A stretch of 64,000 nucleotides of DNA from a bacterium (GTDB lineage Bacteria > Actinomycetota > Acidimicrobiia > Acidimicrobiales > Bin134). Where the stretch lies: contig JAPOTT010000032.1 of the NCBI GenBank assembly GCA_026709025.1, forward strand, positions 92,803 through 156,802. Direction: 5' to 3'. Both the position numbers and the translations under genes were made by a program. Below the pieces are notes generated by a model, which was given only the letters and a program-made list of their open reading frames with translations, was not told the origin of the DNA and searched no databases. Below are positions 1-6,960 of the stretch, in pieces (position 1 is the first letter of the stretch; every line of letters begins with the position of its first letter).

Positions 1-2515
1 CGATCTTGACGGCAATGAGTCCGCTAACAGGCGGGTTGAACGGGGCGGATCGTGTTGAGGTGAGCGCTTGTTGCTCGGACTCGTCGGCGTTGTGGCCCAG
101 TTTGTCGAGCAGCTTTTTGATGAGCTTGTCGCCATCAGCACCGGGGAAGTGAATACGCCGGGCAAAGAAGCTCTCCCCGTCATGGTCTGTGTCAATCATC
201 CAACAAGCGATGTCGTTTGGCCCACCACTGGCGGGAGCACCTGTAGCCGGATCGAACGTGTCGTAACCAGCAACGGCCACCGAGATCCGTCCGTCTGTGT
301 CACTATCACTTACTTCAATATCTGGGCGGCCCAAGATTACAAACGCCTCGTGGCCGGTTTCCTCTGAGAGGTCACGAATTATCAGGTCGCGATTCATCTG
401 AGCTTGGGCCACAGCAATTCGCCCAACTGTATGGGGAGCATCAGGGGCAAACGCATAAGCCACCACAAGCAACAAGTCGGCCGACTCCGCACCGGAGGCC
501 ATCTCCCGAGCTGCTTCGCGGATCATCTCGGCGGGCACGGTCACATCTTCGGCAGCGACCATCACCGCGGCTGTGTGCTCAGCAGCACCACCATTGACGG
601 TGTAGATGGCCTTCCATGCGAGAAGCTGCGAATCTGCAGGCCAGGGCTCCAAAGCCGAGATCGTCATATCTGTAGCAGCGCGGCCTCCGTTGATAGTGCG
701 ATGCAAAAGCGCGTGCTCAACCGCTTGTGAAAAGTCACTTTGGGCGGTGAAGTTTTCGTCTTCAGTGCCCTCGAAGGGGATCACCGTTGCCCACGGCTGT
801 TCGCTCTCCACGGTGAACGGCGAAGCCACACGCACCACGCCGCGCTTTCTGCGGGGCCGATCTACAAGCATGATTGGCTCTGGGTTAAGGTTATAAGCGA
901 GCGTGCTAGCCGACACCTGCGACACGCGCTCATAAACAAAACCTAAAGCCGGATCTTCGCCCCATCCGTGCTCAGATGGCTGCCGAAGAGTATTGCCAGA
1001 CAACTCGGCTTCTTGGGCTGCCCCATATTCGGAGTCGGCTAGCGCCCAGTAATCAAAAGTGGTGGTAGATAAGCGCTGGCGTGCTATGGCTATGGAGACT
1101 GGTGAGGTGTCGCAGGTGATCCATCTGCGCCCCCACTCCTCAGCCACAGAAGCGGTTGTGGCGCCACCGCAGGTGGGATCAAGCACAAGATCCCCAGGAT
1201 CGGTGGACATGAGCATGCACCGCTGAAGCACGCTGTTTGCTGTTTGGACTACATAGCGTTTGTCTGAGGTAGACATCTGCTGGTGCCATAGGTTGTGGAT
1301 GCGACGACCGGGCACCTCGTCCTCGTACCGCCTCCAACCAAGTCTGCCTTCACTCCCAGCCGCATCGAGTCGACCGAGTTCGGCCAAACGATCCATCCCT
1401 TCCATGGAGACGCTCCATTGTCGACCCCGTGGGCAGGGCCAGTCTTGTCCATTCCATTGATAAGACTCAGAGCGTCCAGTCTGTGATTCGCCTTGCGAAT
1501 CCAGTGACATTCTGCGGTAAGCGCGGGCACCTTCAGGAAGATGCTTATCGGGATCGGCCTTCTCCTCATCAGTCAGCTGTCTAGTAGTGCCGTCAGCGAG
1601 TTCGACCATTGCATGCCAACTCATGTGTGCAATCTTCTCCGCTTGGGTAAGCGGCTCATACAGCTGTCGATACTTGAGTTTTTCCTTATCTTTGGCGTAC
1701 CACAGCAGGAAGTCTGCAACGCTGGGAAGAGTCTTTGCAGAAGAACTGCTAGTTGTTGCGAATGGAATGATTGCTATTCGATTGTCGGCACCGAATATCT
1801 CATCCAAGAGCACTCCTACTCTCAACACGTTCTCATCGCCGATTTGCATGAATAGCGAGCCAGATTCGGTCAGCAGTTCGCGCATCAGTACCAGCTTTTC
1901 GTAGGTAAGGTCTAGGTAAGAGTGGATGCCGCGCTGATAGGTGTCACGAAACGCCCGGACGGTACGGGTGTCAAGTGGTCGACCCTTAGCTTTCTCGGGG
2001 GTGCTGTCGTTTTGGCCTACTTCCACTTGAAAGTTGGATTTGTAACCCATCCCATAAGGTGGATCAAAGTAAATCATCTGCACCTTGCCCACCATCTGCT
2101 CTCGCGCAATTAAAGAGGCCATTACACGGACGGCCTCGCCGTGGATTAGTCGGTTAGACCAGTTAGCAGTGTGCTGGTACCACTCATAAGCAGCATCGGC
2201 CGATGGTAGGCCATTGAAATCGCTAAACAAGCTAGGCTGTTCTCCGCTACCTTGAAGCAGCTTGGCAAACGCTGCCGGATGTACTTTTTCACGCACATAC
2301 AAAGGATGCGCGGCGTGCCCCCCCCCATGAAATAGCTGGCGATCCCACGCCAAAACCGGTTCATCGTCAACCATGCGAGTTTCAGGTTTGTGCAAGATGG
2401 GCTTGCGATCTGCTTCGCTCATGGTAGTGGCAGTCTGCTCGGTGGGCAGGTTGGTTCGCCGGGCAGATGAGTGGGTGTACTGTTCGGCAGTCTTGCTGCT
2501 GGCCTTTTGGGGCAT
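1..2515 (-). CDS. mod: Type III-like R-M DNA methyltransferase (Mod, beta-class amino-methyltransferase), 3'-partial. It runs off the left edge and is absent from the supplied ORF track.
   Basis: Manual minus-strand translation from the ATG at 2515-2513 gives one uninterrupted frame of 838 codons down to position 1; the track appears to list only complete ORFs. The N-terminus reads '...YEWYQHTANWSNRLIHGEAVRVMASL'. Motif IV is 'MIYFDPPYG' (DPPY at 2065-2054) and motif I is 'LVLDPTCGGATTASVAEEWGRRWITCD' (about 1180-1151). The order IV-TRD-I is as in Type III Mod proteins. More than 380 aa follow motif I. The ATG overlaps the res TGA (ATGA). Confidence 0.85.
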   Translation of the reverse strand, partial: MPQKASSKTAEQYTHSSARRTNLPTEQTATTMSEADRKPILHKPETRMVDDEPVLAWDRQLFHGGGHAAHPLYVREKVHPAAFAKLLQGSGEQPSLFSDFNGLPSADAAYEWYQHTANWSNRLIHGEAVRVMASLIAREQMVGKVQMIYFDPPYGMGYKSNFQVEVGQNDSTPEKAKGRPLDTRTVRAFRDTYQRGIHSYLDLTYEKLVLMRELLTESGSLFMQIGDENVLRVGVLLDEIFGADNRIAIIPFATTSSSSAKTLPSVADFLLWYAKDKEKLKYRQLYEPLTQAEKIAHMSWHAMVELADGTTRQLTDEEKADPDKHLPEGARAYRRMSLDSQGESQTGRSESYQWNGQDWPCPRGRQWSVSMEGMDRLAELGRLDAAGSEGRLGWRRYEDEVPGRRIHNLWHQQMSTSDKRYVVQTANSVLQRCMLMSTDPGDLVLDPTCGGATTASVAEEWGRRWITCDTSPVSIAIARQRLSTTTFDYWALADSEYGAAQEAELSGNTLRQPSEHGWGEDPALGFVYERVSQVSASTLAYNLNPEPIMLVDRPRRKRGVVRVASPFTVESEQPWATVIPFEGTEDENFTAQSDFSQAVEHALLHRTINGGRAATDMTISALEPWPADSQLLAWKAIYTVNGGAAEHTAAVMVAAEDVTVPAEMIREAAREMASGAESADLLLVVAYAFAPDAPHTVGRIAVAQAQMNRDLIIRDLSEETGHEAFVILGRPDIEVSDSDTDGRISVAVAGYDTFDPATGAPASGGPNDIACWMIDTDHDGESFFARRIHFPGADGDKLIKKLLDKLGHNADESEQQALTSTRSAPFNPPVSGLIAVKI
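2318..2326 (-). repeat. G9 homopolymer (C9 on the + strand) inside mod, codons 64-66 (Gly-Gly-Gly)
   Basis: Read directly as 'gtgccc ccccccatga'. Exactly 189 nt (63 codons) separate the mod ATG from the tract. It is the longest homopolymer I noticed in the window. Confidence 0.9.
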
Positions 2516-5505
2516 CATGCTGCTCCTTGCTGTGGGATGTGAAGCTCTACAGGCTTGGGGTGTGAGGTTTGAGTGTGGGCGCTGCGGACCTCAGCTATGG
2601 CTATGTTGAGATCTGCGGTCATGCGGTCTTTGTTGGCTAGCTCCACAAAAGACCAGCTGCGCAACCATCTAGGAAGTTGGGCAGAAGATTCCACAGCGGG
2701 TATCCATTTTTCGGTTGTTGCCTGCTTTTTACGCTCAGAACGGTCATCTGTGATGCCCTTGCATTCGATGATGAGGTGGACAGCTGATTCGTCTTCGCGT
2801 TCACCAAACAGGCGCACCACGAAATCGGGTTCGTAGTGATGCCATGCACCTTCCCACAGGCAGGGAATCTCCCAGCCGAGCCGAAAGTTACGCGCCCAGC
2901 CGCGCACGTCAGGGTGATTGTCCAGTTGCCAAGCTAACGCCGCCTCAAACTCCGAATGACACGCTGCCGCGCTCAACTCCGAATGTTTGGCAACGTGGCG
3001 ATCTACCAGGCTGGTTTCAAATGATATGCCCGAGGTGTCTAGCAGGTTGGGGTAACCGAACGTAGCAGCCACCCTGTCGGCAGTGGCATCAGCGGGCAAA
3101 CAGGCATCGGCAATCTCCTTTGTGGCTTGGACCAGGTTTGCTGAACCGATGGTATTCCAATCGGCGGCAATCACATTTGCAAGCTCAGCCCATTGGCTGA
3201 CTATACGGATGGCATCGTGAAACAGGTAACGTCGCCGCGCTCGCCAACTATTGCCTGTTTCATCAAGGTGAGTACACCAGCGGGTAACCAATTCAGCTGC
3301 AAGGCGGGTTTGGGCCTGCTGTGCACGCATCTGTTCATACGCCTTGAGGGTGGTAGTGCCACCTACCGACCCCGATAGCTCAGTTTGTGCAACACCATCG
3401 GGTACCCACCTAATCACCCTCGTTTTATCGAGGCGGAAGCGGTTTGAGCCATGTTCGGTAAGATATGAAGCCACGTTAGGGAAATCCACGCGGTACATCT
3501 GTCGACCATGCACACTTTTTACTTCGTAGCGTGGTTTGGGCGGGCTGCTTACGTCCTGGCCTTTGGTTGGCATGAACTCAAACGGCACGCCAATCACCTC
3601 GGCGTACTCGGCAACGAGGCGGCCCTCGGTGTCGTAGTTGTCGTAGTTAGAGCGCCGCAGCGCCCGTCCAGTCACCTGCTCACACAGCAGTTGGGTGGAG
3701 AAGGCCCTGTAGCCACAGATGTGAGTGACGGTGCGAGTGTCCCAACCCTCGGTGAGCATCTGCACCGATACAACACACCGAATGTGTTCACCGAGCCCTC
3801 CAGCCTTGCCTACCGAGTTCAGGGCGCTCCGCACCACCTCCTTATCGTCTCTGTTGTCGCCGGGTTCTCGCAAGCGGGCAGCCTGCGAGCTGACAGACTT
3901 GTTCAGGTTGGCTTCTCCCTCGAGTTGAGAATGGACTAGTAACGTGTGCATCTGCTCTGTTGGCTTACCTTCTGAGTAGTTGACTAACAACGGGTAAGCT
4001 CCGTTGTGACACTCGGTGGTGCCATCATCTTGCTTTTCCAACCAGCCAGAGATGTGGTCGGCTATGGCCGTTGCATTGGAGATATTATTTGCCACCACAA
4101 TCAGCACTGGCGGAGTGGGCATTCGCAGTTTTGGATCTTCCGGGTTCATCCACAGGTCGTACTTCTGTTCGTAACTGCTGTATAGCGCATCAAGCGCTCG
4201 TTTGAGTTCGGCGGGCACAGCATCGCGGCGCACCTTCTTGGGAGTGGTGTTGCGATACAGGTTGCGCCATTTCACATCGCCAGCGTCCGTGTTGTCGTCT
4301 ATTGGTACCTGCGGTATCTTCACTAACCCAGATTCAATGCTGTCCATAAGAGGGAAGTCCGACACCACCCACGGGAACATGCGTTCTTTACGCTCGGAGC
4401 CTTCTATGAAAATTGGCGTGGCCGAGAAATCGTACACCGGGCCTAGCTGTTGCGATTCGCGCAGCCCGGCTAGAGCGCCAAACCAGATTGCCGCCGCTTT
4501 GGTATCATCATCGCCATCTGCGCCACGCCGACCCGCTTCGGGTAAGTAGCAGTGGTGGGCTTCATCGTTGAGCACGCACACCCGTGGCGCGCCACTCCCC
4601 TTTGGAAAACCTCGCAGGATCCTCTGCAAAACAGCATCCATAGATTCGTATTCGGTTTTGTCGCTACCGACACGGAATAGTTTCTTGGCATCGCTCGAAG
4701 CAACAGCCAAGCGATCTCTGGGCGCGAACGCATGAAAGTTCAGCACCCGTATCTTTACCGCCCCCAGGCAAGCCCGCATACTCTCTGGCAAAAGCCGCAT
4801 TTCGTCATACACGTTTTCTTGATGGGTGGGTTGTAGCACCGCTAGGCGCTCCCTAACTGTATGGCCTGGTGCTATTGCTAGAAAACAGGTGGTGTAACGA
4901 CTATCACGGCGGCGTGTGGACGCAGCGTTGGCAGCGTGATAGGCGATCATCATGCCCATTACGGCTGTCTTGCCCGAACCGGTTGCCATCCGCACCGCCC
5001 AACGGGCGATGCCATCGTTGTACTCGTTGTTTGCATCTATTAACTGGCGGCGCACTTCAGCCAGCACCGGGTACTTGCTGGCGTTAGCCTCGGTTAACCA
5101 GATCAGAGTTTCGACGGCCTCTACCTGAGCAAAGAATAGCCGGGGTTCATTGGTTTCACTGCGCCAGTGCTGCAAAAGATGCCTAGTTGTTGCCGTTGTT
5201 CCAGGATAGGCCGAATGCCGCCACGCACCCACCGCGTCTCGGATGCGATTCACCAACTCGTTCTGTTCTGCGGAGGTGACCTGCATTCGCAACTGCGTGC
5301 CGCGCTGTTTGGGGACTATCACCAGTGCCTGGCTCAACCGGCGACCCTCAATCACCTCGCCAGTAGCAATGTTGTCCTCGCCTAATTCCCAATAGCGAGA
5401 AGGCTCTAAATGAGGCCGGTTCAGCACAGGCTGTGTAACGTGGTCGAGCACCCGAGATGGAGTTGGCAATGGCTTAGGTGCATGGTTAGCGCCATCGGTT
5501 GTCAT
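2515..5505 (-). CDS. res: Type III restriction enzyme Res subunit (SF2 helicase/ATPase with a C-terminal PD-(D/E)xK nuclease)
   Basis: 996-aa ORF. Helicase motifs are I 'MATGSGKTAV', II 'VLNDEAHHCY' (DEAH), III 'DFSATPI' and V/VI 'MLTEGWDTRTV...QVTGRALRR'. The C-terminal nuclease motif is 'YEPDFVV...HLIIECKG'. An RBS-like AAGGTGA sits just upstream of the ATG at 5505. Confidence 0.9.
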   Translation of the reverse strand: MTTDGANHAPKPLPTPSRVLDHVTQPVLNRPHLEPSRYWELGEDNIATGEVIEGRRLSQALVIVPKQRGTQLRMQVTSAEQNELVNRIRDAVGAWRHSAYPGTTATTRHLLQHWRSETNEPRLFFAQVEAVETLIWLTEANASKYPVLAEVRRQLIDANNEYNDGIARWAVRMATGSGKTAVMGMMIAYHAANAASTRRRDSRYTTCFLAIAPGHTVRERLAVLQPTHQENVYDEMRLLPESMRACLGAVKIRVLNFHAFAPRDRLAVASSDAKKLFRVGSDKTEYESMDAVLQRILRGFPKGSGAPRVCVLNDEAHHCYLPEAGRRGADGDDDTKAAAIWFGALAGLRESQQLGPVYDFSATPIFIEGSERKERMFPWVVSDFPLMDSIESGLVKIPQVPIDDNTDAGDVKWRNLYRNTTPKKVRRDAVPAELKRALDALYSSYEQKYDLWMNPEDPKLRMPTPPVLIVVANNISNATAIADHISGWLEKQDDGTTECHNGAYPLLVNYSEGKPTEQMHTLLVHSQLEGEANLNKSVSSQAARLREPGDNRDDKEVVRSALNSVGKAGGLGEHIRCVVSVQMLTEGWDTRTVTHICGYRAFSTQLLCEQVTGRALRRSNYDNYDTEGRLVAEYAEVIGVPFEFMPTKGQDVSSPPKPRYEVKSVHGRQMYRVDFPNVASYLTEHGSNRFRLDKTRVIRWVPDGVAQTELSGSVGGTTTLKAYEQMRAQQAQTRLAAELVTRWCTHLDETGNSWRARRRYLFHDAIRIVSQWAELANVIAADWNTIGSANLVQATKEIADACLPADATADRVAATFGYPNLLDTSGISFETSLVDRHVAKHSELSAAACHSEFEAALAWQLDNHPDVRGWARNFRLGWEIPCLWEGAWHHYEPDFVVRLFGEREDESAVHLIIECKGITDDRSERKKQATTEKWIPAVESSAQLPRWLRSWSFVELANKDRMTADLNIAIAEVRSAHTQTSHPKPVELHIPQQGAA

Positions 5506-5608: not shown

Positions 5609-6892
5609 TTAGGGTTTTAGTGCGGTGATGGACACCACTCCTACCCCGTCAGTTCGCATGTAGGGTTTCCCGGTAGAAGTGATGATAATAAGTGCGCTGG
5701 GAGCACCCATAACGCTTGTGTCAACTTTGGCGGTCAACTTCAACAACGATTGAGCTGCTTCTTCAATTGCATCGGGAGCCCCCAGCTTAACCTCAACTGC
5801 AATCCATTTACCGTCGTCTCGCTCTAAAATTGCATCTACTTCAAGCTTGTCTTTATCGCGGTAATGATAAACCGCACTTCGGCACGCTTGGGCATAAACA
5901 CGGAGATCTCGCATCACCATTGATTCAAAAAGCAACCCAAGAGCTTGTCTGTCTTTGAACAGGGAATCGGCGCTAGCTCCGAGGGCAGCCGTTGCCAACG
6001 ATGGATCAACGAGATGGTGCTTAGGAGATGACCGCAAAGTAGAGCGCGACAACAAACGTACCTTCCAAGCTGGCTGAGGTTCATAGATGAAAATACTGCT
6101 CAGCGCGTCCAGATATGTTCGCACTGTCTGGCGGGCTATAGCCCCGCTTTCGCCCAGATCAGTTGCCAACGTGTTCTGACTAGCTTCTGAAGCGCTGTTT
6201 CGGGCTAGCGATGCAAGCAATCGCCGCACACCCTGGGGATTGTGTCGGATGTTGCTAGTTTGCGGTAAATCTACACGACAAACCTCGTTCAGATAGTCCC
6301 GCGCAAACTCTTGCGCGTCACGAGGCTCTATGTGTTGAGTGAGTGGCCAGCCACCCCGCAGTAGCCAATCTATAACTTCTCTGAGTTCATCTGCAGGCGT
6401 GGCATTGCTCGTCGTCAAAGGTCTTAGATCAGCTTCGTATCCCGAATCAAAAAGTTTCCCGAGGCTTACTGTTCCAGTTGAAGTCCCACTCTCCCAGAGC
6501 GACATGGGCCGCATCAAAATTCGCCCTACCCGACCAGCACCAGAATGCCGAAAGATGTAATCAGAGGGTCGAGCCGAAGCTGAGAGAATGAACCTTCCTG
6601 GTCTGCCTAAACGATCGCTAGCCCGCCTGACTTGATCCCACAGCCCGGGAACTAAAGGCCACTCATCCAAGAGCATGGGATGTGCGCCTTCCGTTAGAGG
6701 TAGCGTTCCTTGCGATGCGTGACCCCGCGCCGACTCGTCTTCGTCAAACAAAATCTCACTAGCAGCGAACTGCTGCGATGTTGTCGTCTTACCACAACCG
6801 CGCGTGCCTTCGACTAGAACCACTGGAAGCGAGCGCAGTTTGTCGGCTATCTGGGTGTCAATCACCCGTGGCATATAGCGATCCACAACCAT
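5609..6892 (-). CDS. AAA+ ATPase with a C-terminal DUF4143 domain (COG1373-type predicted ATPase), paralog 1
   Basis: 427-aa ORF. Walker A is 'EGTRGCGKTT' and Walker B-like is 'PMLLDEWP'. The C-terminal 'LEVDAILERDDGKWIAVEVKLG' resembles a restriction-endonuclease-fold D...E-x-K motif. It is co-directional with res, 103 nt upstream of it. Confidence 0.8.
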   Translation of the reverse strand: MVVDRYMPRVIDTQIADKLRSLPVVLVEGTRGCGKTTTSQQFAASEILFDEDESARGHASQGTLPLTEGAHPMLLDEWPLVPGLWDQVRRASDRLGRPGRFILSASARPSDYIFRHSGAGRVGRILMRPMSLWESGTSTGTVSLGKLFDSGYEADLRPLTTSNATPADELREVIDWLLRGGWPLTQHIEPRDAQEFARDYLNEVCRVDLPQTSNIRHNPQGVRRLLASLARNSASEASQNTLATDLGESGAIARQTVRTYLDALSSIFIYEPQPAWKVRLLSRSTLRSSPKHHLVDPSLATAALGASADSLFKDRQALGLLFESMVMRDLRVYAQACRSAVYHYRDKDKLEVDAILERDDGKWIAVEVKLGAPDAIEEAAQSLLKLTAKVDTSVMGAPSALIIITSTGKPYMRTDGVGVVSITALKP

Positions 6893-6960
6893 AATCTAAC
6901 ACTTTGGCGATCATTTATCTTACAATTCGGCGAACAATTATCTAACAAAACAGCGACCCA
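6892..6960. repeat. Three tandem, exactly 23-bp-phased degenerate repeats (TTATCTWACA-N4-GGCGA) that abut and overlap the start codon of DUF4143 ATPase paralog 1
   Basis: Units are 6892-6914 'taatctaacactttggcgatcat', 6915-6937 'ttatcttacaattcggcgaacaa' and 6938-6960 'ttatctaacaaaacagcgaccca'. Pairwise identity is 16/23 and 17/23. The word and the GGCGA/AGCGA box each recur at exactly 23 bp. Confidence 0.85.

What the first reader, a model, noticed from the sequence alone, without database searches (positions are those of the whole stretch)
2318..2326. In-frame G9 homopolymer near the 5' end of mod: a candidate phase-variable Type III methyltransferase (phasevarion) in an actinobacterium
Seen in the sequence:
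- Nine consecutive G (coding strand) form codons 64-66 of mod, exactly 189 nt after the ATG. This length keeps the 838+ codon frame open (ON).
- By hand translation, a -1 slip (G8) reads 'HGGGTPRILCMC...' and terminates at 2146; this is the 74-aa frame listed in the ORF track.
- A +1 slip (G10) terminates after about 12 codons.
- It is the longest homopolymer I noticed in the 64 kb.

Established knowledge: simple-sequence repeats inside Type III mod genes drive ON/OFF switching (phasevarions) in Haemophilus, Neisseria, Helicobacter and Moraxella. Reversible homopolymer frameshifts also occur in Actinobacteria, for example the M. tuberculosis glpK 7C tract.

Because res lies upstream, mod-OFF would leave Res without its DNA-recognition partner, so the whole system would be silenced.
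Basis: partly seen in the sequence, partly recalled or inferred. Interest (0 to 1): 0.7.

Follow-up and report, generated by a model that had tools for sequence, protein, structure and literature searches.

The report
Slippery G9 run in restriction-system methylase gene
A run of nine G's sits in frame near the start of the methylase gene of a DNA restriction system in a sponge-dwelling actinobacterium. Relatives suggest such runs can switch the system on and off, but in this species the run has the same length in all six assemblies examined, so switching is plausible, not shown, and the mechanism is already well known.

Summary
C9 on the + strand at 2318-2326 is G9 on the coding strand. It forms three GGG codons 189 nt after the ATG at 2515 and is the only homopolymer of 8 or more bases in the 64 kb. 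A ±1 change truncates Mod at residue 76 or 123.

The gene is the mod of a chromosomal Type III-like res-mod operon in a sponge-associated Acidimicrobiia, close to Ca. Poriferisocius.

For a switch:
- The tract lies in a non-conserved linker; only its last Gly is conserved.
- A separate sister clade carries a conserved C9-C11 tract at the same linker site, with in-frame and frameshifted alleles under purifying selection (dN/dS 0.07-0.31).
- More distant relatives carry 10-16 nt G/C tracts in mod or res, both ON and OFF.

Against:
- Six assemblies of this species all read G9.
- The inactive allele seen in four of them comes from a CGA-to-TGA nonsense mutation, not from the tract.
- Nothing bears on a regulon (phasevarion).
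- res is intact.

Verdict: a credible candidate phase-variable restriction-modification system and a new member of a known kind. Switching is not demonstrated. Interest is moderate.

The parts
2318..2326 (-). G9 homopolymer (C9 on the + strand). It forms three GGG codons: Gly64-66 counted from ATG 2515, or Gly65-67 from ATG 2518. The current length keeps mod in frame (ON).
   Evidence: The tract is identical in L001, L082 and L177-L180.
1..2518 (-). mod, the Type III-class N6-adenine DNA methyltransferase. It runs off the window start: 839 codons are seen here, and the full length is 864/865 aa in near-identical contigs. It contains DPPY (motif IV), then a variable target-recognition region, then DPTCGG (motif I), then a roughly 300-aa C-terminal region with no Pfam domain.
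   Evidence: PF01555, 6e-27; PADLOC MTase_III, 2e-150; EcoP15I Mod 4zcf 1.4e-12; 6k0w 8e-14; full length.
2515..5505 (-). res, 996 aa. It has SF2 helicase-like ATPase motifs (GSGKT at 176, LNDEAHH at 312, TEGWD at 585) and a C-terminal PD-ExK nuclease motif (YEPDF...IIECK, 891-916). Its stop codon TGA (2515-2517) overlaps the mod start (ATGATG).
   Evidence: NCBIfam NF046055 'BPTD_3080 family restriction endonuclease', 772 bits against a cut-off of 800; ResIII 20 bits, RE_endonuc 14 bits, both below cut-off; motifs.
2146..2148 (-). TAA stop reached after a -1 (G8) or +2 (G11) tract change. The product is 123 aa counted from ATG 2518.
   Evidence: ORF 2146..2370.
2289..2291 (-). TGA stop reached after a +1 (G10) or -2 (G7) tract change. 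The product is 76 aa counted from ATG 2518.
   Evidence: read against the sequence.
2150..2152 (-). Arg123 codon, CGA here. In four other assemblies of the same species it is TGA, a natural mod-OFF allele that does not involve the tract.
2306..2344 (-). Hypervariable linker codons that contain the tract (here Q-L-F-H-G-G-G). They lie between the conserved LAW(N/D)R motif and the conserved HAAHPLYVREK motif. Coordinates are approximate.
   Evidence: W58 and R60 upstream, and A70/P72/L73/Y74 downstream, are invariant. Only the last Gly is conserved in 90% or more of sequences.

Best explanation
The G9 run is a real, lineage-specific homopolymer. It replaced part of a non-conserved linker near the 5' end of mod, in a chromosomal Type III-like res-mod operon of a sponge-associated Acidimicrobiia.

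It most likely acts as a slipped-strand mutational switch. At nine G's, mod is in frame and the system is ON. Gaining or losing one G during replication shifts the frame and ends translation at residue 76 or 123. That removes the whole methyltransferase core. Type III Res needs Mod to recognise DNA, so restriction would be lost as well. Res itself would still be made, because it is encoded upstream.

The likely benefit is bet-hedging of a costly defence system, trading phage defence against DNA uptake or self-restriction. A dedicated gene-regulatory phasevarion is the less likely reading.

Shown here: the tract, its frame, the consequences of slips, the gene identities, and ON/OFF tract alleles in relatives.
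Inferred: that slippage occurs at a useful rate in this organism, that it is reversible, and that it is selected for.
For: 1. The tract is in frame, and ±1 changes truncate Mod upstream of every methyltransferase motif.
2. The tract is not explained by protein conservation. Orthologs encode a different 6-7 residue linker with mixed codons, and only the last Gly is conserved. The other 10 Gly-Gly-Gly tripeptides in the window use mixed codons.
3. A monophyletic sister clade, separate from the window's clade in a neighbour-joining tree, has a pure poly-C tract at the same linker site. The states are C9 frameshifted (L011; L083-L088, six assemblies), C11 frameshifted (L089), and C11 in frame (L091, L092).
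4. The frameshifted alleles are not decayed. dN/dS is 0.07-0.31 at dS 0.2-1.0, both upstream and downstream of the tract. The tract has persisted over dS of about 1.
5. Other members of this R-M family carry 10-16 nt G/C tracts in mod or res. In mod: L017 G12 ON, L025 C10 ON, L044 G11 OFF, and L066 with two tandem mod copies, G14 ON and G15 OFF. In res: L008 C16 at codons about 7-12, L044 C11, L019 C12, L020 C15.
6. G/C runs of 11 or more number 12 inside the R-M genes and 1 in the other flanking DNA (p=0.006, not corrected for phylogeny).
7. G9 meets the published operational threshold for a phase-variable mod (PMC5909438).
8. Homopolymer phase variation is documented in another actinobacterium, M. 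tuberculosis (10.1101/717272 and PMC10334774).
9. A close relative (L174) is a variant allele with conserved 5' and 3' ends and a divergent central target-recognition region. Its scaffold breaks exactly at the tract, with G-rich junk after the gap.
Against: 1. All six readable assemblies of this species have exactly G9: the window, L082, L001/L178, L177, L179 and L180, from at least five ENA analyses. All protein-level copies read HGGGH. No G8 or G10 allele was found, including by a search with the hypothetical G8 product, though that search had limited sensitivity.
2. The OFF allele actually present in four assemblies is a CGA-to-TGA nonsense mutation 171 nt downstream of the tract. Inactivation here did not use the tract.
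3. Within the sister species, six assemblies are uniformly C9. Length differences are therefore seen between species, not between samples. That fits slow evolutionary change as well as rapid switching.
4. Nine bases is the bottom of the range considered switch-prone.
5. Other family members are broken by ordinary frameshifts away from any homopolymer (L093, L175, L176, P0134). Gene decay is therefore common in this family.
6. res is intact and upstream. An OFF-to-ON switch on an unmethylated chromosome would carry a risk of self-restriction.
7. Consensus assemblies cannot show minority length variants.
Confidence: 0.5

Rival explanations
1. Neutral chance run. The linker tolerates almost any sequence. 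A Gly-rich replacement happened to use GGG three times, and the tract has no selected switching role. Any slippage is rare and simply deleterious.
For: The tract length is invariant in six assemblies. GGG makes up 22% of Gly codons, so with 11 Gly-Gly-Gly tripeptides in the window there is about a 12% chance that at least one is G9. A Markov model expects about 0.5 G/C runs of 9 or more in 64 kb. The linker is the least conserved part of the N-terminus. Inactivation in nature used a nonsense mutation.
Against: The real sequence is strongly depleted of long runs, and this is the only one of 8 or more bases. It lies in the gene class best known for such switches. Independent homopolymers occur at the same linker site in a sister clade, and elsewhere in res and mod of relatives, with ON/OFF states.
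Confidence: 0.3
2. A mutational weak spot on the way to gene loss. Homopolymers in these R-M genes are just where irreversible pseudogenisation tends to happen in symbionts that are shedding or turning over defence genes. They are not reversible, selected switches.
For: Many mod genes of the family are broken in several ways: a nonsense mutation in this species, and non-homopolymer frameshifts in L093, L175, L176 and P0134. The C9 OFF state is uniform across six assemblies of one species and is shared with L011. dN/dS for L011 against L083 is higher (0.31) than for the other pairs.
Against: The OFF alleles keep long open frames on both sides of the tract, and dN/dS is well below 1 over dS of 0.2-1.0. 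The poly-C tract stays uninterrupted across a clade with dS of about 1, and in-frame members exist (L091, L092). In the window the gene is intact and ON.
Confidence: 0.15
3. Sequencing or assembly artefact at a poly-G run.
For: Poly-G is error-prone on two-colour Illumina chemistry. One relative's scaffold (L174) breaks at the tract and carries G-rich junk. L027 also shows G-rich junk inside mod.
Against: The same G9, in frame, was recovered by different assemblers from at least five sample analyses, with 0-8 mismatches over 8-9 kb.
Confidence: 0.02

Closest known systems
Phase-variable Type III mod genes with mononucleotide G tracts (for example Helicobacter pylori modH/modJ/modL and Campylobacter upsaliensis modU; surveyed in PMC5909438)
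   Same: It has a poly-G run of nine bases inside the mod ORF, and ±1 changes give a premature stop. The Mod is a beta-class enzyme, with DPPY before the FxGxG-type motif and the target-recognition region between them. At least one close allele has conserved ends and a divergent target-recognition region (L174).
   Different: The gene order is res then mod, with overlapping stop and start codons. Mod has a roughly 100-aa family-specific N-terminal extension, which holds the tract, and a roughly 300-aa C-terminal extension. The host is an uncultured sponge-associated Acidimicrobiia. No length polymorphism has been seen in this species, and no methylome or expression data exist.
EcoP15I-type Type III restriction-modification (PDB 4zcf)
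   Same: The Mod core is homologous (1.4e-12). Res has SF2 ATPase motifs and a C-terminal PD-ExK nuclease motif.
   Different: Res has no detectable sequence match in the PDB and is below the Pfam ResIII cut-off. It belongs to the NCBIfam 'BPTD_3080 family', scoring just under that cut-off. The gene order is reversed.
Homopolymer-tract phase variation in Mycobacterium tuberculosis (glpK 7C and others; 10.1101/717272, PMC10334774)
   Same: Both are reversible frameshifting at short G/C homopolymers in an actinobacterial genome.
   Different: The target gene class differs (metabolic or ESX genes rather than R-M), and that case was demonstrated experimentally. Whether this Acidimicrobiia shares the mycobacterial repair background was not tested.
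Corynebacterium casei M.Cca44701ORF9495P, listed in PMC5909438 as a repeat-containing Type III mod in an environmental actinobacterium
   Same: It is a candidate phase-variable Type III mod in the phylum Actinomycetota, identified from sequence alone.
   Different: Its repeat type and its homology to this gene were not examined here.

Membership tests
Type III restriction-modification system | Mod is a beta-class N6-adenine methyltransferase: motif IV (DPPY) comes before motif I, with the target-recognition region between them. | tested here: met
   DPPY lies at about residues 152-155 and DPTCGGATT at about 447-455. PF01555 scores 6e-27 over residues 146-479. PADLOC MTase_III scores 2e-150. 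EcoP15I Mod and H. pylori Mod in the PDB score 1e-12 to 8e-14.
Type III restriction-modification system | Res has an SF2 helicase-like ATPase and a PD-(D/E)xK nuclease. | tested here: inconclusive
   The motifs are present: GSGKT, LNDEAHH, TEGWD and YEPDF...IIECK. Profile scores are below cut-off: ResIII 20 against 22.5, RE_endonuc 14 against 23.4, and NF046055 772 against 800. PADLOC REase_III is only 4e-4, and there is no PDB sequence match.
Type III restriction-modification system | mod and res form one operon, classically in the order mod then res. | tested here: not met
   The two genes are adjacent and overlap (ATGATG/TGA at 2513-2518), so the operon part is met. The order is res then mod, here and in all close relatives examined. 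This is a layout variant, not evidence against the enzymology.
Type III restriction-modification system | Res activity depends on Mod, and cleavage is ATP-dependent between inversely oriented unmethylated sites. | not testable with these tools
   This needs biochemistry.
Phase-variable mod gene (operational criteria of PMC5909438) | A mononucleotide repeat of at least nine bases lies inside the ORF. | tested here: met
   G9 lies at 2318-2326, in frame. The threshold is quoted.
Phase-variable mod gene (operational criteria of PMC5909438) | A change in tract length shifts the frame to a premature stop. | tested here: met
   G8 and G11 stop at residue 123. G7 and G10 stop at residue 76.
Phase-variable gene (experimental definition) | Tract length differs among strains or within a population, giving ON and OFF states. 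| tested here: not met
   Six assemblies of this species all read G9 at consensus level, and no G8 or G10 product was found. The feature is met in relatives: C9 OFF, C11 OFF and C11 ON at the same site, and G14 ON with G15 OFF in one genome. Read-level heterogeneity could not be tested.
Phasevarion (phase-variable regulon) | ON/OFF switching of Mod changes genome-wide methylation and the expression of a set of genes. | not testable with these tools
   No methylome or transcriptome data are available. The intact res argues for a working defence system but does not exclude a regulatory side-effect.

The most novel reading that the evidence does not exclude
A single family of Type III-like res-mod systems, spread across sponge symbionts of several phyla (Acidimicrobiia, Acidobacteriota, Gammaproteobacteria and others), has repeatedly and independently acquired 9-16 nt G/C homopolymers in res or mod. 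Stochastic ON/OFF switching of restriction would then be a community-wide trait of sponge microbiomes. The long-lived 'frameshifted' alleles under purifying selection, such as C9 in six assemblies, may still be expressed, either through frequent reversion or through transcriptional slippage on the tract.
Probability: 0.3. Interest if true: 0.6.

Novelty: new member of a known kind. Interest (0 to 1): 0.4.

Why it matters
Phase-variable restriction systems are known almost entirely from host-adapted pathogens. If confirmed, this locus and its relatives would extend the same trick to uncultured, vertically or horizontally maintained sponge symbionts, including Acidimicrobiia. It would suggest that these dense, phage-rich communities hedge their defence and DNA-uptake states stochastically. 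It also gives a concrete, checkable site (G9 at 2318-2326, plus the C9-C11 site in the sister clade) for read-level tests in existing public sponge metagenomes. The mechanism itself would not be new.

Tried and rejected
- Hypothetical G8 frameshift product searched against 5.8 billion proteins. The only hit was P0134, an unrelated N-terminal fragment of a relative that is broken elsewhere. The word index apparently did not cover the N-terminus of this species' cluster, so this negative is weak.
- Metagenome-contig scan with the Mod alignment. It returned only four close relatives (L094-L097), none with a tract. The rest were relatives at 34-44% identity.
- N-terminally truncated gene calls P0096, P0114 and P0115 were followed as possible tract-OFF alleles. 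Their breaks are a 7-nt duplication or single-base indels away from any homopolymer, in 3-4x long-read contigs, so they are not evidence for tract switching. P0108 turned out to be the same contig as P0103.
- P0001 is 100% identical to the window's Mod but starts at residue 133. It looked like an OFF allele of the tract, but it is caused by a nonsense codon.
- AlphaFold2 model of Mod from a 33-sequence alignment. Mean pLDDT was 41.9, too poor to say whether the tract lies in a disordered loop, so no fold search was run.
- First enrichment test, mod against all flanks, gave p=0.40. Many of the 'flank' tracts were in res. The test was redone with res and mod together against the remaining DNA.
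- Promoter/terminator, tRNA, Rfam and tandem-repeat scans found nothing relevant to the locus.
- Literature searches for phase-variable R-M in sponge symbionts and for 'BPTD_3080' found nothing.
Full report
**1. The observation**

Window 2318-2326 is C9 on the + strand, which is G9 on the coding strand. The coding strand reads CAT GGG GGG GGG CAC. The tract starts 189 nt after the ATG at 2515. A second in-frame ATG at 2518 overlaps the res stop codon (ATGATG / TGA).

The frame stays open for 839 codons to the window edge. Near-identical contigs give a full length of 864/865 aa.

- G8 and G11 read ...HGGGTPRILCMC... and stop at TAA 2146-2148, a 123-aa product.
- G10 and G7 stop at TGA 2289-2291, a 76-aa product. 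That is nine codons after the Gly run, not about twelve.

It is the only homopolymer of 8 or more bases in the 64 kb. There are 34 runs of 6, three of 7, none of 8 and one of 9.

On chance, the picture is mixed:
- A first-order Markov model expects about 0.5 G/C runs of 9 or more in this window, so that model alone does not make the run remarkable.
- The real sequence is strongly depleted of long runs.
- GGG is only 22% of Gly codons.
- The other ten Gly-Gly-Gly tripeptides in the window all use mixed codons.

**2. The genes and the host**

*Mod.* It carries PF01555 (6e-27). It matches a PADLOC Type III methyltransferase model at 2e-150. It also matches the solved Type III Mod proteins EcoP15I and H. 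pylori Mod. DPPY comes before the DPTCGG motif, with a variable region between them, which is the beta-class layout.

*Res.* The upstream 996-aa ORF scores 772 bits against NCBIfam NF046055, 'BPTD_3080 family restriction endonuclease', just under the cut-off of 800.
- It has GSGKT, LNDEAHH and TEGWD motifs and a C-terminal YEPDF...IIECK (PD-ExK) motif.
- Its Pfam matches are only sub-threshold.
- It has no PDB sequence match.

I therefore call the system Type III-like. The gene order is res then mod, with coupled stop and start codons.

*Context.* The locus is chromosomal: purM, purF, purL, purB and dnaK lie in the same window.

*Host.* DnaK is 85-88% identical to Candidatus Poriferisocius and to Acidimicrobiia MAGs. 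That genus belongs to Acidimicrobiales, phylum Actinomycetota. Mod homologues come from sponge-symbiont MAGs. 'An actinobacterium' is correct; more precisely it is a sponge-associated Acidimicrobiia.

**3. Where the tract sits in the protein**

In about 110 homologues at 60-80% identity, the N-terminus is well conserved: NLPTEQT, LAW(N/D)R, HAAHPLYVREK and DFNGLP. The exception is a 6-7 residue linker between LAW(N/D)R and HAAHPLY, usually QPANQDG or QPADTDG. Here the linker reads QLFHGGG.

Only the last Gly is conserved. At the DNA level, orthologues have mixed codons and no run longer than five bases.

That is not what is seen. The triple Gly exists because of the tract, not the other way round.

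**4. Relatives with tracts**

Several N-terminally truncated gene calls led to a monophyletic sister clade, separate from the window + P0002 clade in a neighbour-joining tree. It has a pure poly-C run at exactly this linker site.

| Locus | Tract | State |
|---|---|---|
| L011 | C9 | frameshifted |
| L083-L088 (six assemblies of one species, made with different assemblers) | C9 | frameshifted |
| L089 | C11 | frameshifted |
| L091 (196x circular long-read contig) | C11 | in frame |
| L092 | C11 | in frame |

In each of the three frameshifted lineages, C10 would restore the frame. The frameshifted alleles are not decaying. dN/dS between them is 0.07-0.31 at dS 0.2-1.0, both upstream and downstream of the tract. 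The tract has stayed uninterrupted across dS of about 1.

More distant members of the same R-M family, from other phyla of mostly sponge symbionts, also carry long G/C runs in variable segments.
- In mod: L017 G12 ON, L025 C10 ON, L044 G11 OFF, and L066 with two tandem mod copies, G14 ON and G15 OFF.
- In res: L008 C16 at codons about 7-12, L044 C11, L019 C12, L020 C15. The L003 contig ends in a G15 run inside res.

I compared G/C runs inside the R-M genes (695 kb) with those in the other flanking DNA (538 kb). Runs of 9 or more number 15 against 4 (p=0.036). Runs of 11 or more number 12 against 1 (p=0.006). This test is not corrected for shared ancestry, and collapsing the poly-C clade to one origin weakens it.

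**5. The same species**

This is where the case is weakest. The window matches L082 with 1 mismatch in 9005 nt and L001 with 7 in 8122, with no gaps. Six assemblies from at least five ENA analyses all read exactly G9: the window, L082, L001/L178, L177, L179 and L180. All cluster members at protein level read HGGGH.

Four of these assemblies do carry an inactive mod. The cause is CGA to TGA at Arg123 (window 2150-2152), not the tract. A search with the hypothetical G8 product found nothing relevant, though that search was not sensitive.

One close relative, L174, has a divergent mod:
- Its res is 98% identical at nucleotide level.
- Its Mod is about 100% identical at the two ends but only 70-90% identical across residues 200-460. 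It looks like a target-recognition-domain variant allele.
- Its scaffold has a 10-N gap exactly at the tract, followed by G-rich junk.

That gap could mean a longer or heterogeneous tract, or it could be poly-G sequencing noise.

**6. Interpretation**

A G9 run will slip more often than ordinary sequence, and the consequences for Mod are clear. The comparative pattern is the signature of contingency loci:
- independent tracts at the same tolerant linker;
- conserved tracts;
- ON and OFF states held under purifying selection;
- tracts in res as well as in mod.

The same mechanism is textbook for Type III mod genes. The REBASE survey labels 17.4% of them phase-variable, using a nine-base threshold for mononucleotide runs. 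It already lists environmental species and one actinobacterium, Corynebacterium casei (PMC5909438). Homopolymer phase variation is also established in M. tuberculosis.

Set against that, tract length is uniform within each of the two species for which I have multiple assemblies. The one natural OFF allele in this species bypasses the tract. Ordinary decay of mod genes is common in the family. I therefore put about 0.5 on a functional slipped-strand switch, 0.3 on a neutral run with no selected role, and 0.15 on a one-way decay hotspot. An artefact is essentially excluded.

'Phasevarion' is not supported as such. Nothing here addresses a regulon. res is intact and upstream, so the simpler reading is ON/OFF switching of a working defence system. 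The inference that mod-OFF silences restriction as well rests on established Type III biology (Res needs Mod for DNA recognition) and was not tested here.

**7. Novelty and score**

This is a new member of a known kind. The specific points of interest are the host (uncultured sponge Acidimicrobiia), the res-mod layout, the convergent use of one linker site by G and C tracts in two clades, and the spread of such tracts through one R-M family in sponge symbionts. I found no paper on that last point in the held library. Interest is 0.4. Read-level pile-ups of existing public data would settle the matter.

Noticed in passing
window 2150-2152 (Arg123 codon of mod); L001 5971-5973; L177-L180: Four other assemblies of the same species carry TGA instead of CGA here. 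This splits mod into 121/122-aa and 733-aa pieces, while res stays intact and the tract stays G9. It is a natural mod-null allele at appreciable frequency.
   Followed up: yes
L011 4185; L083-L088 1925 (346 in L088); L089 2031; L091 2217; L092 1969: A sister clade of the same Mod family has a conserved poly-C tract at the same linker position. The states are C9 (frameshifted), C11 (frameshifted) and C11 (in frame). dN/dS is 0.07-0.31 between the frameshifted alleles.
   Followed up: yes
L008 1082 (C16); L044 1044 (C11); L019 3229 (C12); L020 1046 (C15); L003 3 (G15 at the contig end): Relatives whose mod lacks a tract often have a long G/C homopolymer in or next to res instead: at its 5' end (L008, L044), inside it (L019, L003), or just upstream of the region that matches Res (L020). 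In L008 it forms codons about 7-12 of a Res that is 72% identical to the window's.
   Followed up: partly
L066 4001-6823 and 7199-10028: A gammaproteobacterial MAG has two tandem copies of the mod gene with nearly identical flanks around a poly-G run. One copy has G14 and is in frame; the other has G15 and is frameshifted.
   Followed up: partly
L174 2929-3040 (GCA_026708735.1, JAPOUH010000275.1): A close relative's scaffold has a 10-N gap exactly where the tract should be, followed by about 90 nt of G-rich junk. Its Mod is about 100% identical to the window's at both ends but 70-90% identical across residues 200-460, a variant allele of the target-recognition region.
   Followed up: partly
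window 5609-6892 (- strand): The gene immediately upstream of res encodes an AAA_14 + DUF4143 ATPase. It matches the PADLOC candidate defence family PDC-S01 (1e-68), and the same neighbour is present in L001 and L082. It may form a small defence island with the R-M system.
   Followed up: no
window 6887-6956: A 23-bp unit (AACAATTATCTAACAATTCGGCG) is repeated about 2.7 times, overlapping the start of the ATPase gene and the region just upstream of it. Its function is unknown; it may be an operator or promoter element.
   Followed up: no
window 1-900 (- strand); Mod residues about 560-864: Mod has a conserved C-terminal region of about 300 aa with no Pfam domain, and a conserved N-terminal extension of about 100 aa (NLPTEQT, HAAHPLYVREK, DFNGLP) that EcoP15I-type Mod lacks. 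The AlphaFold model was too poor to interpret (pLDDT 41.9).
   Followed up: partly
samples ERZ27276907 and ERZ23500506 (L179/L083 and L177/L084): The window's species and the C9 sister species co-occur in the same metagenomes. In those samples both have an inactive mod: a nonsense mutation in one and a C9 frameshift in the other. In ERZ23497193 the window's species has an intact mod.
   Followed up: no
L027 5508-5665: An Acidobacteriota contig has about 150 nt of G-rich, low-complexity sequence inside mod, at the position where L044 has G11. This is probably a mis-assembled long poly-G tract.
   Followed up: no
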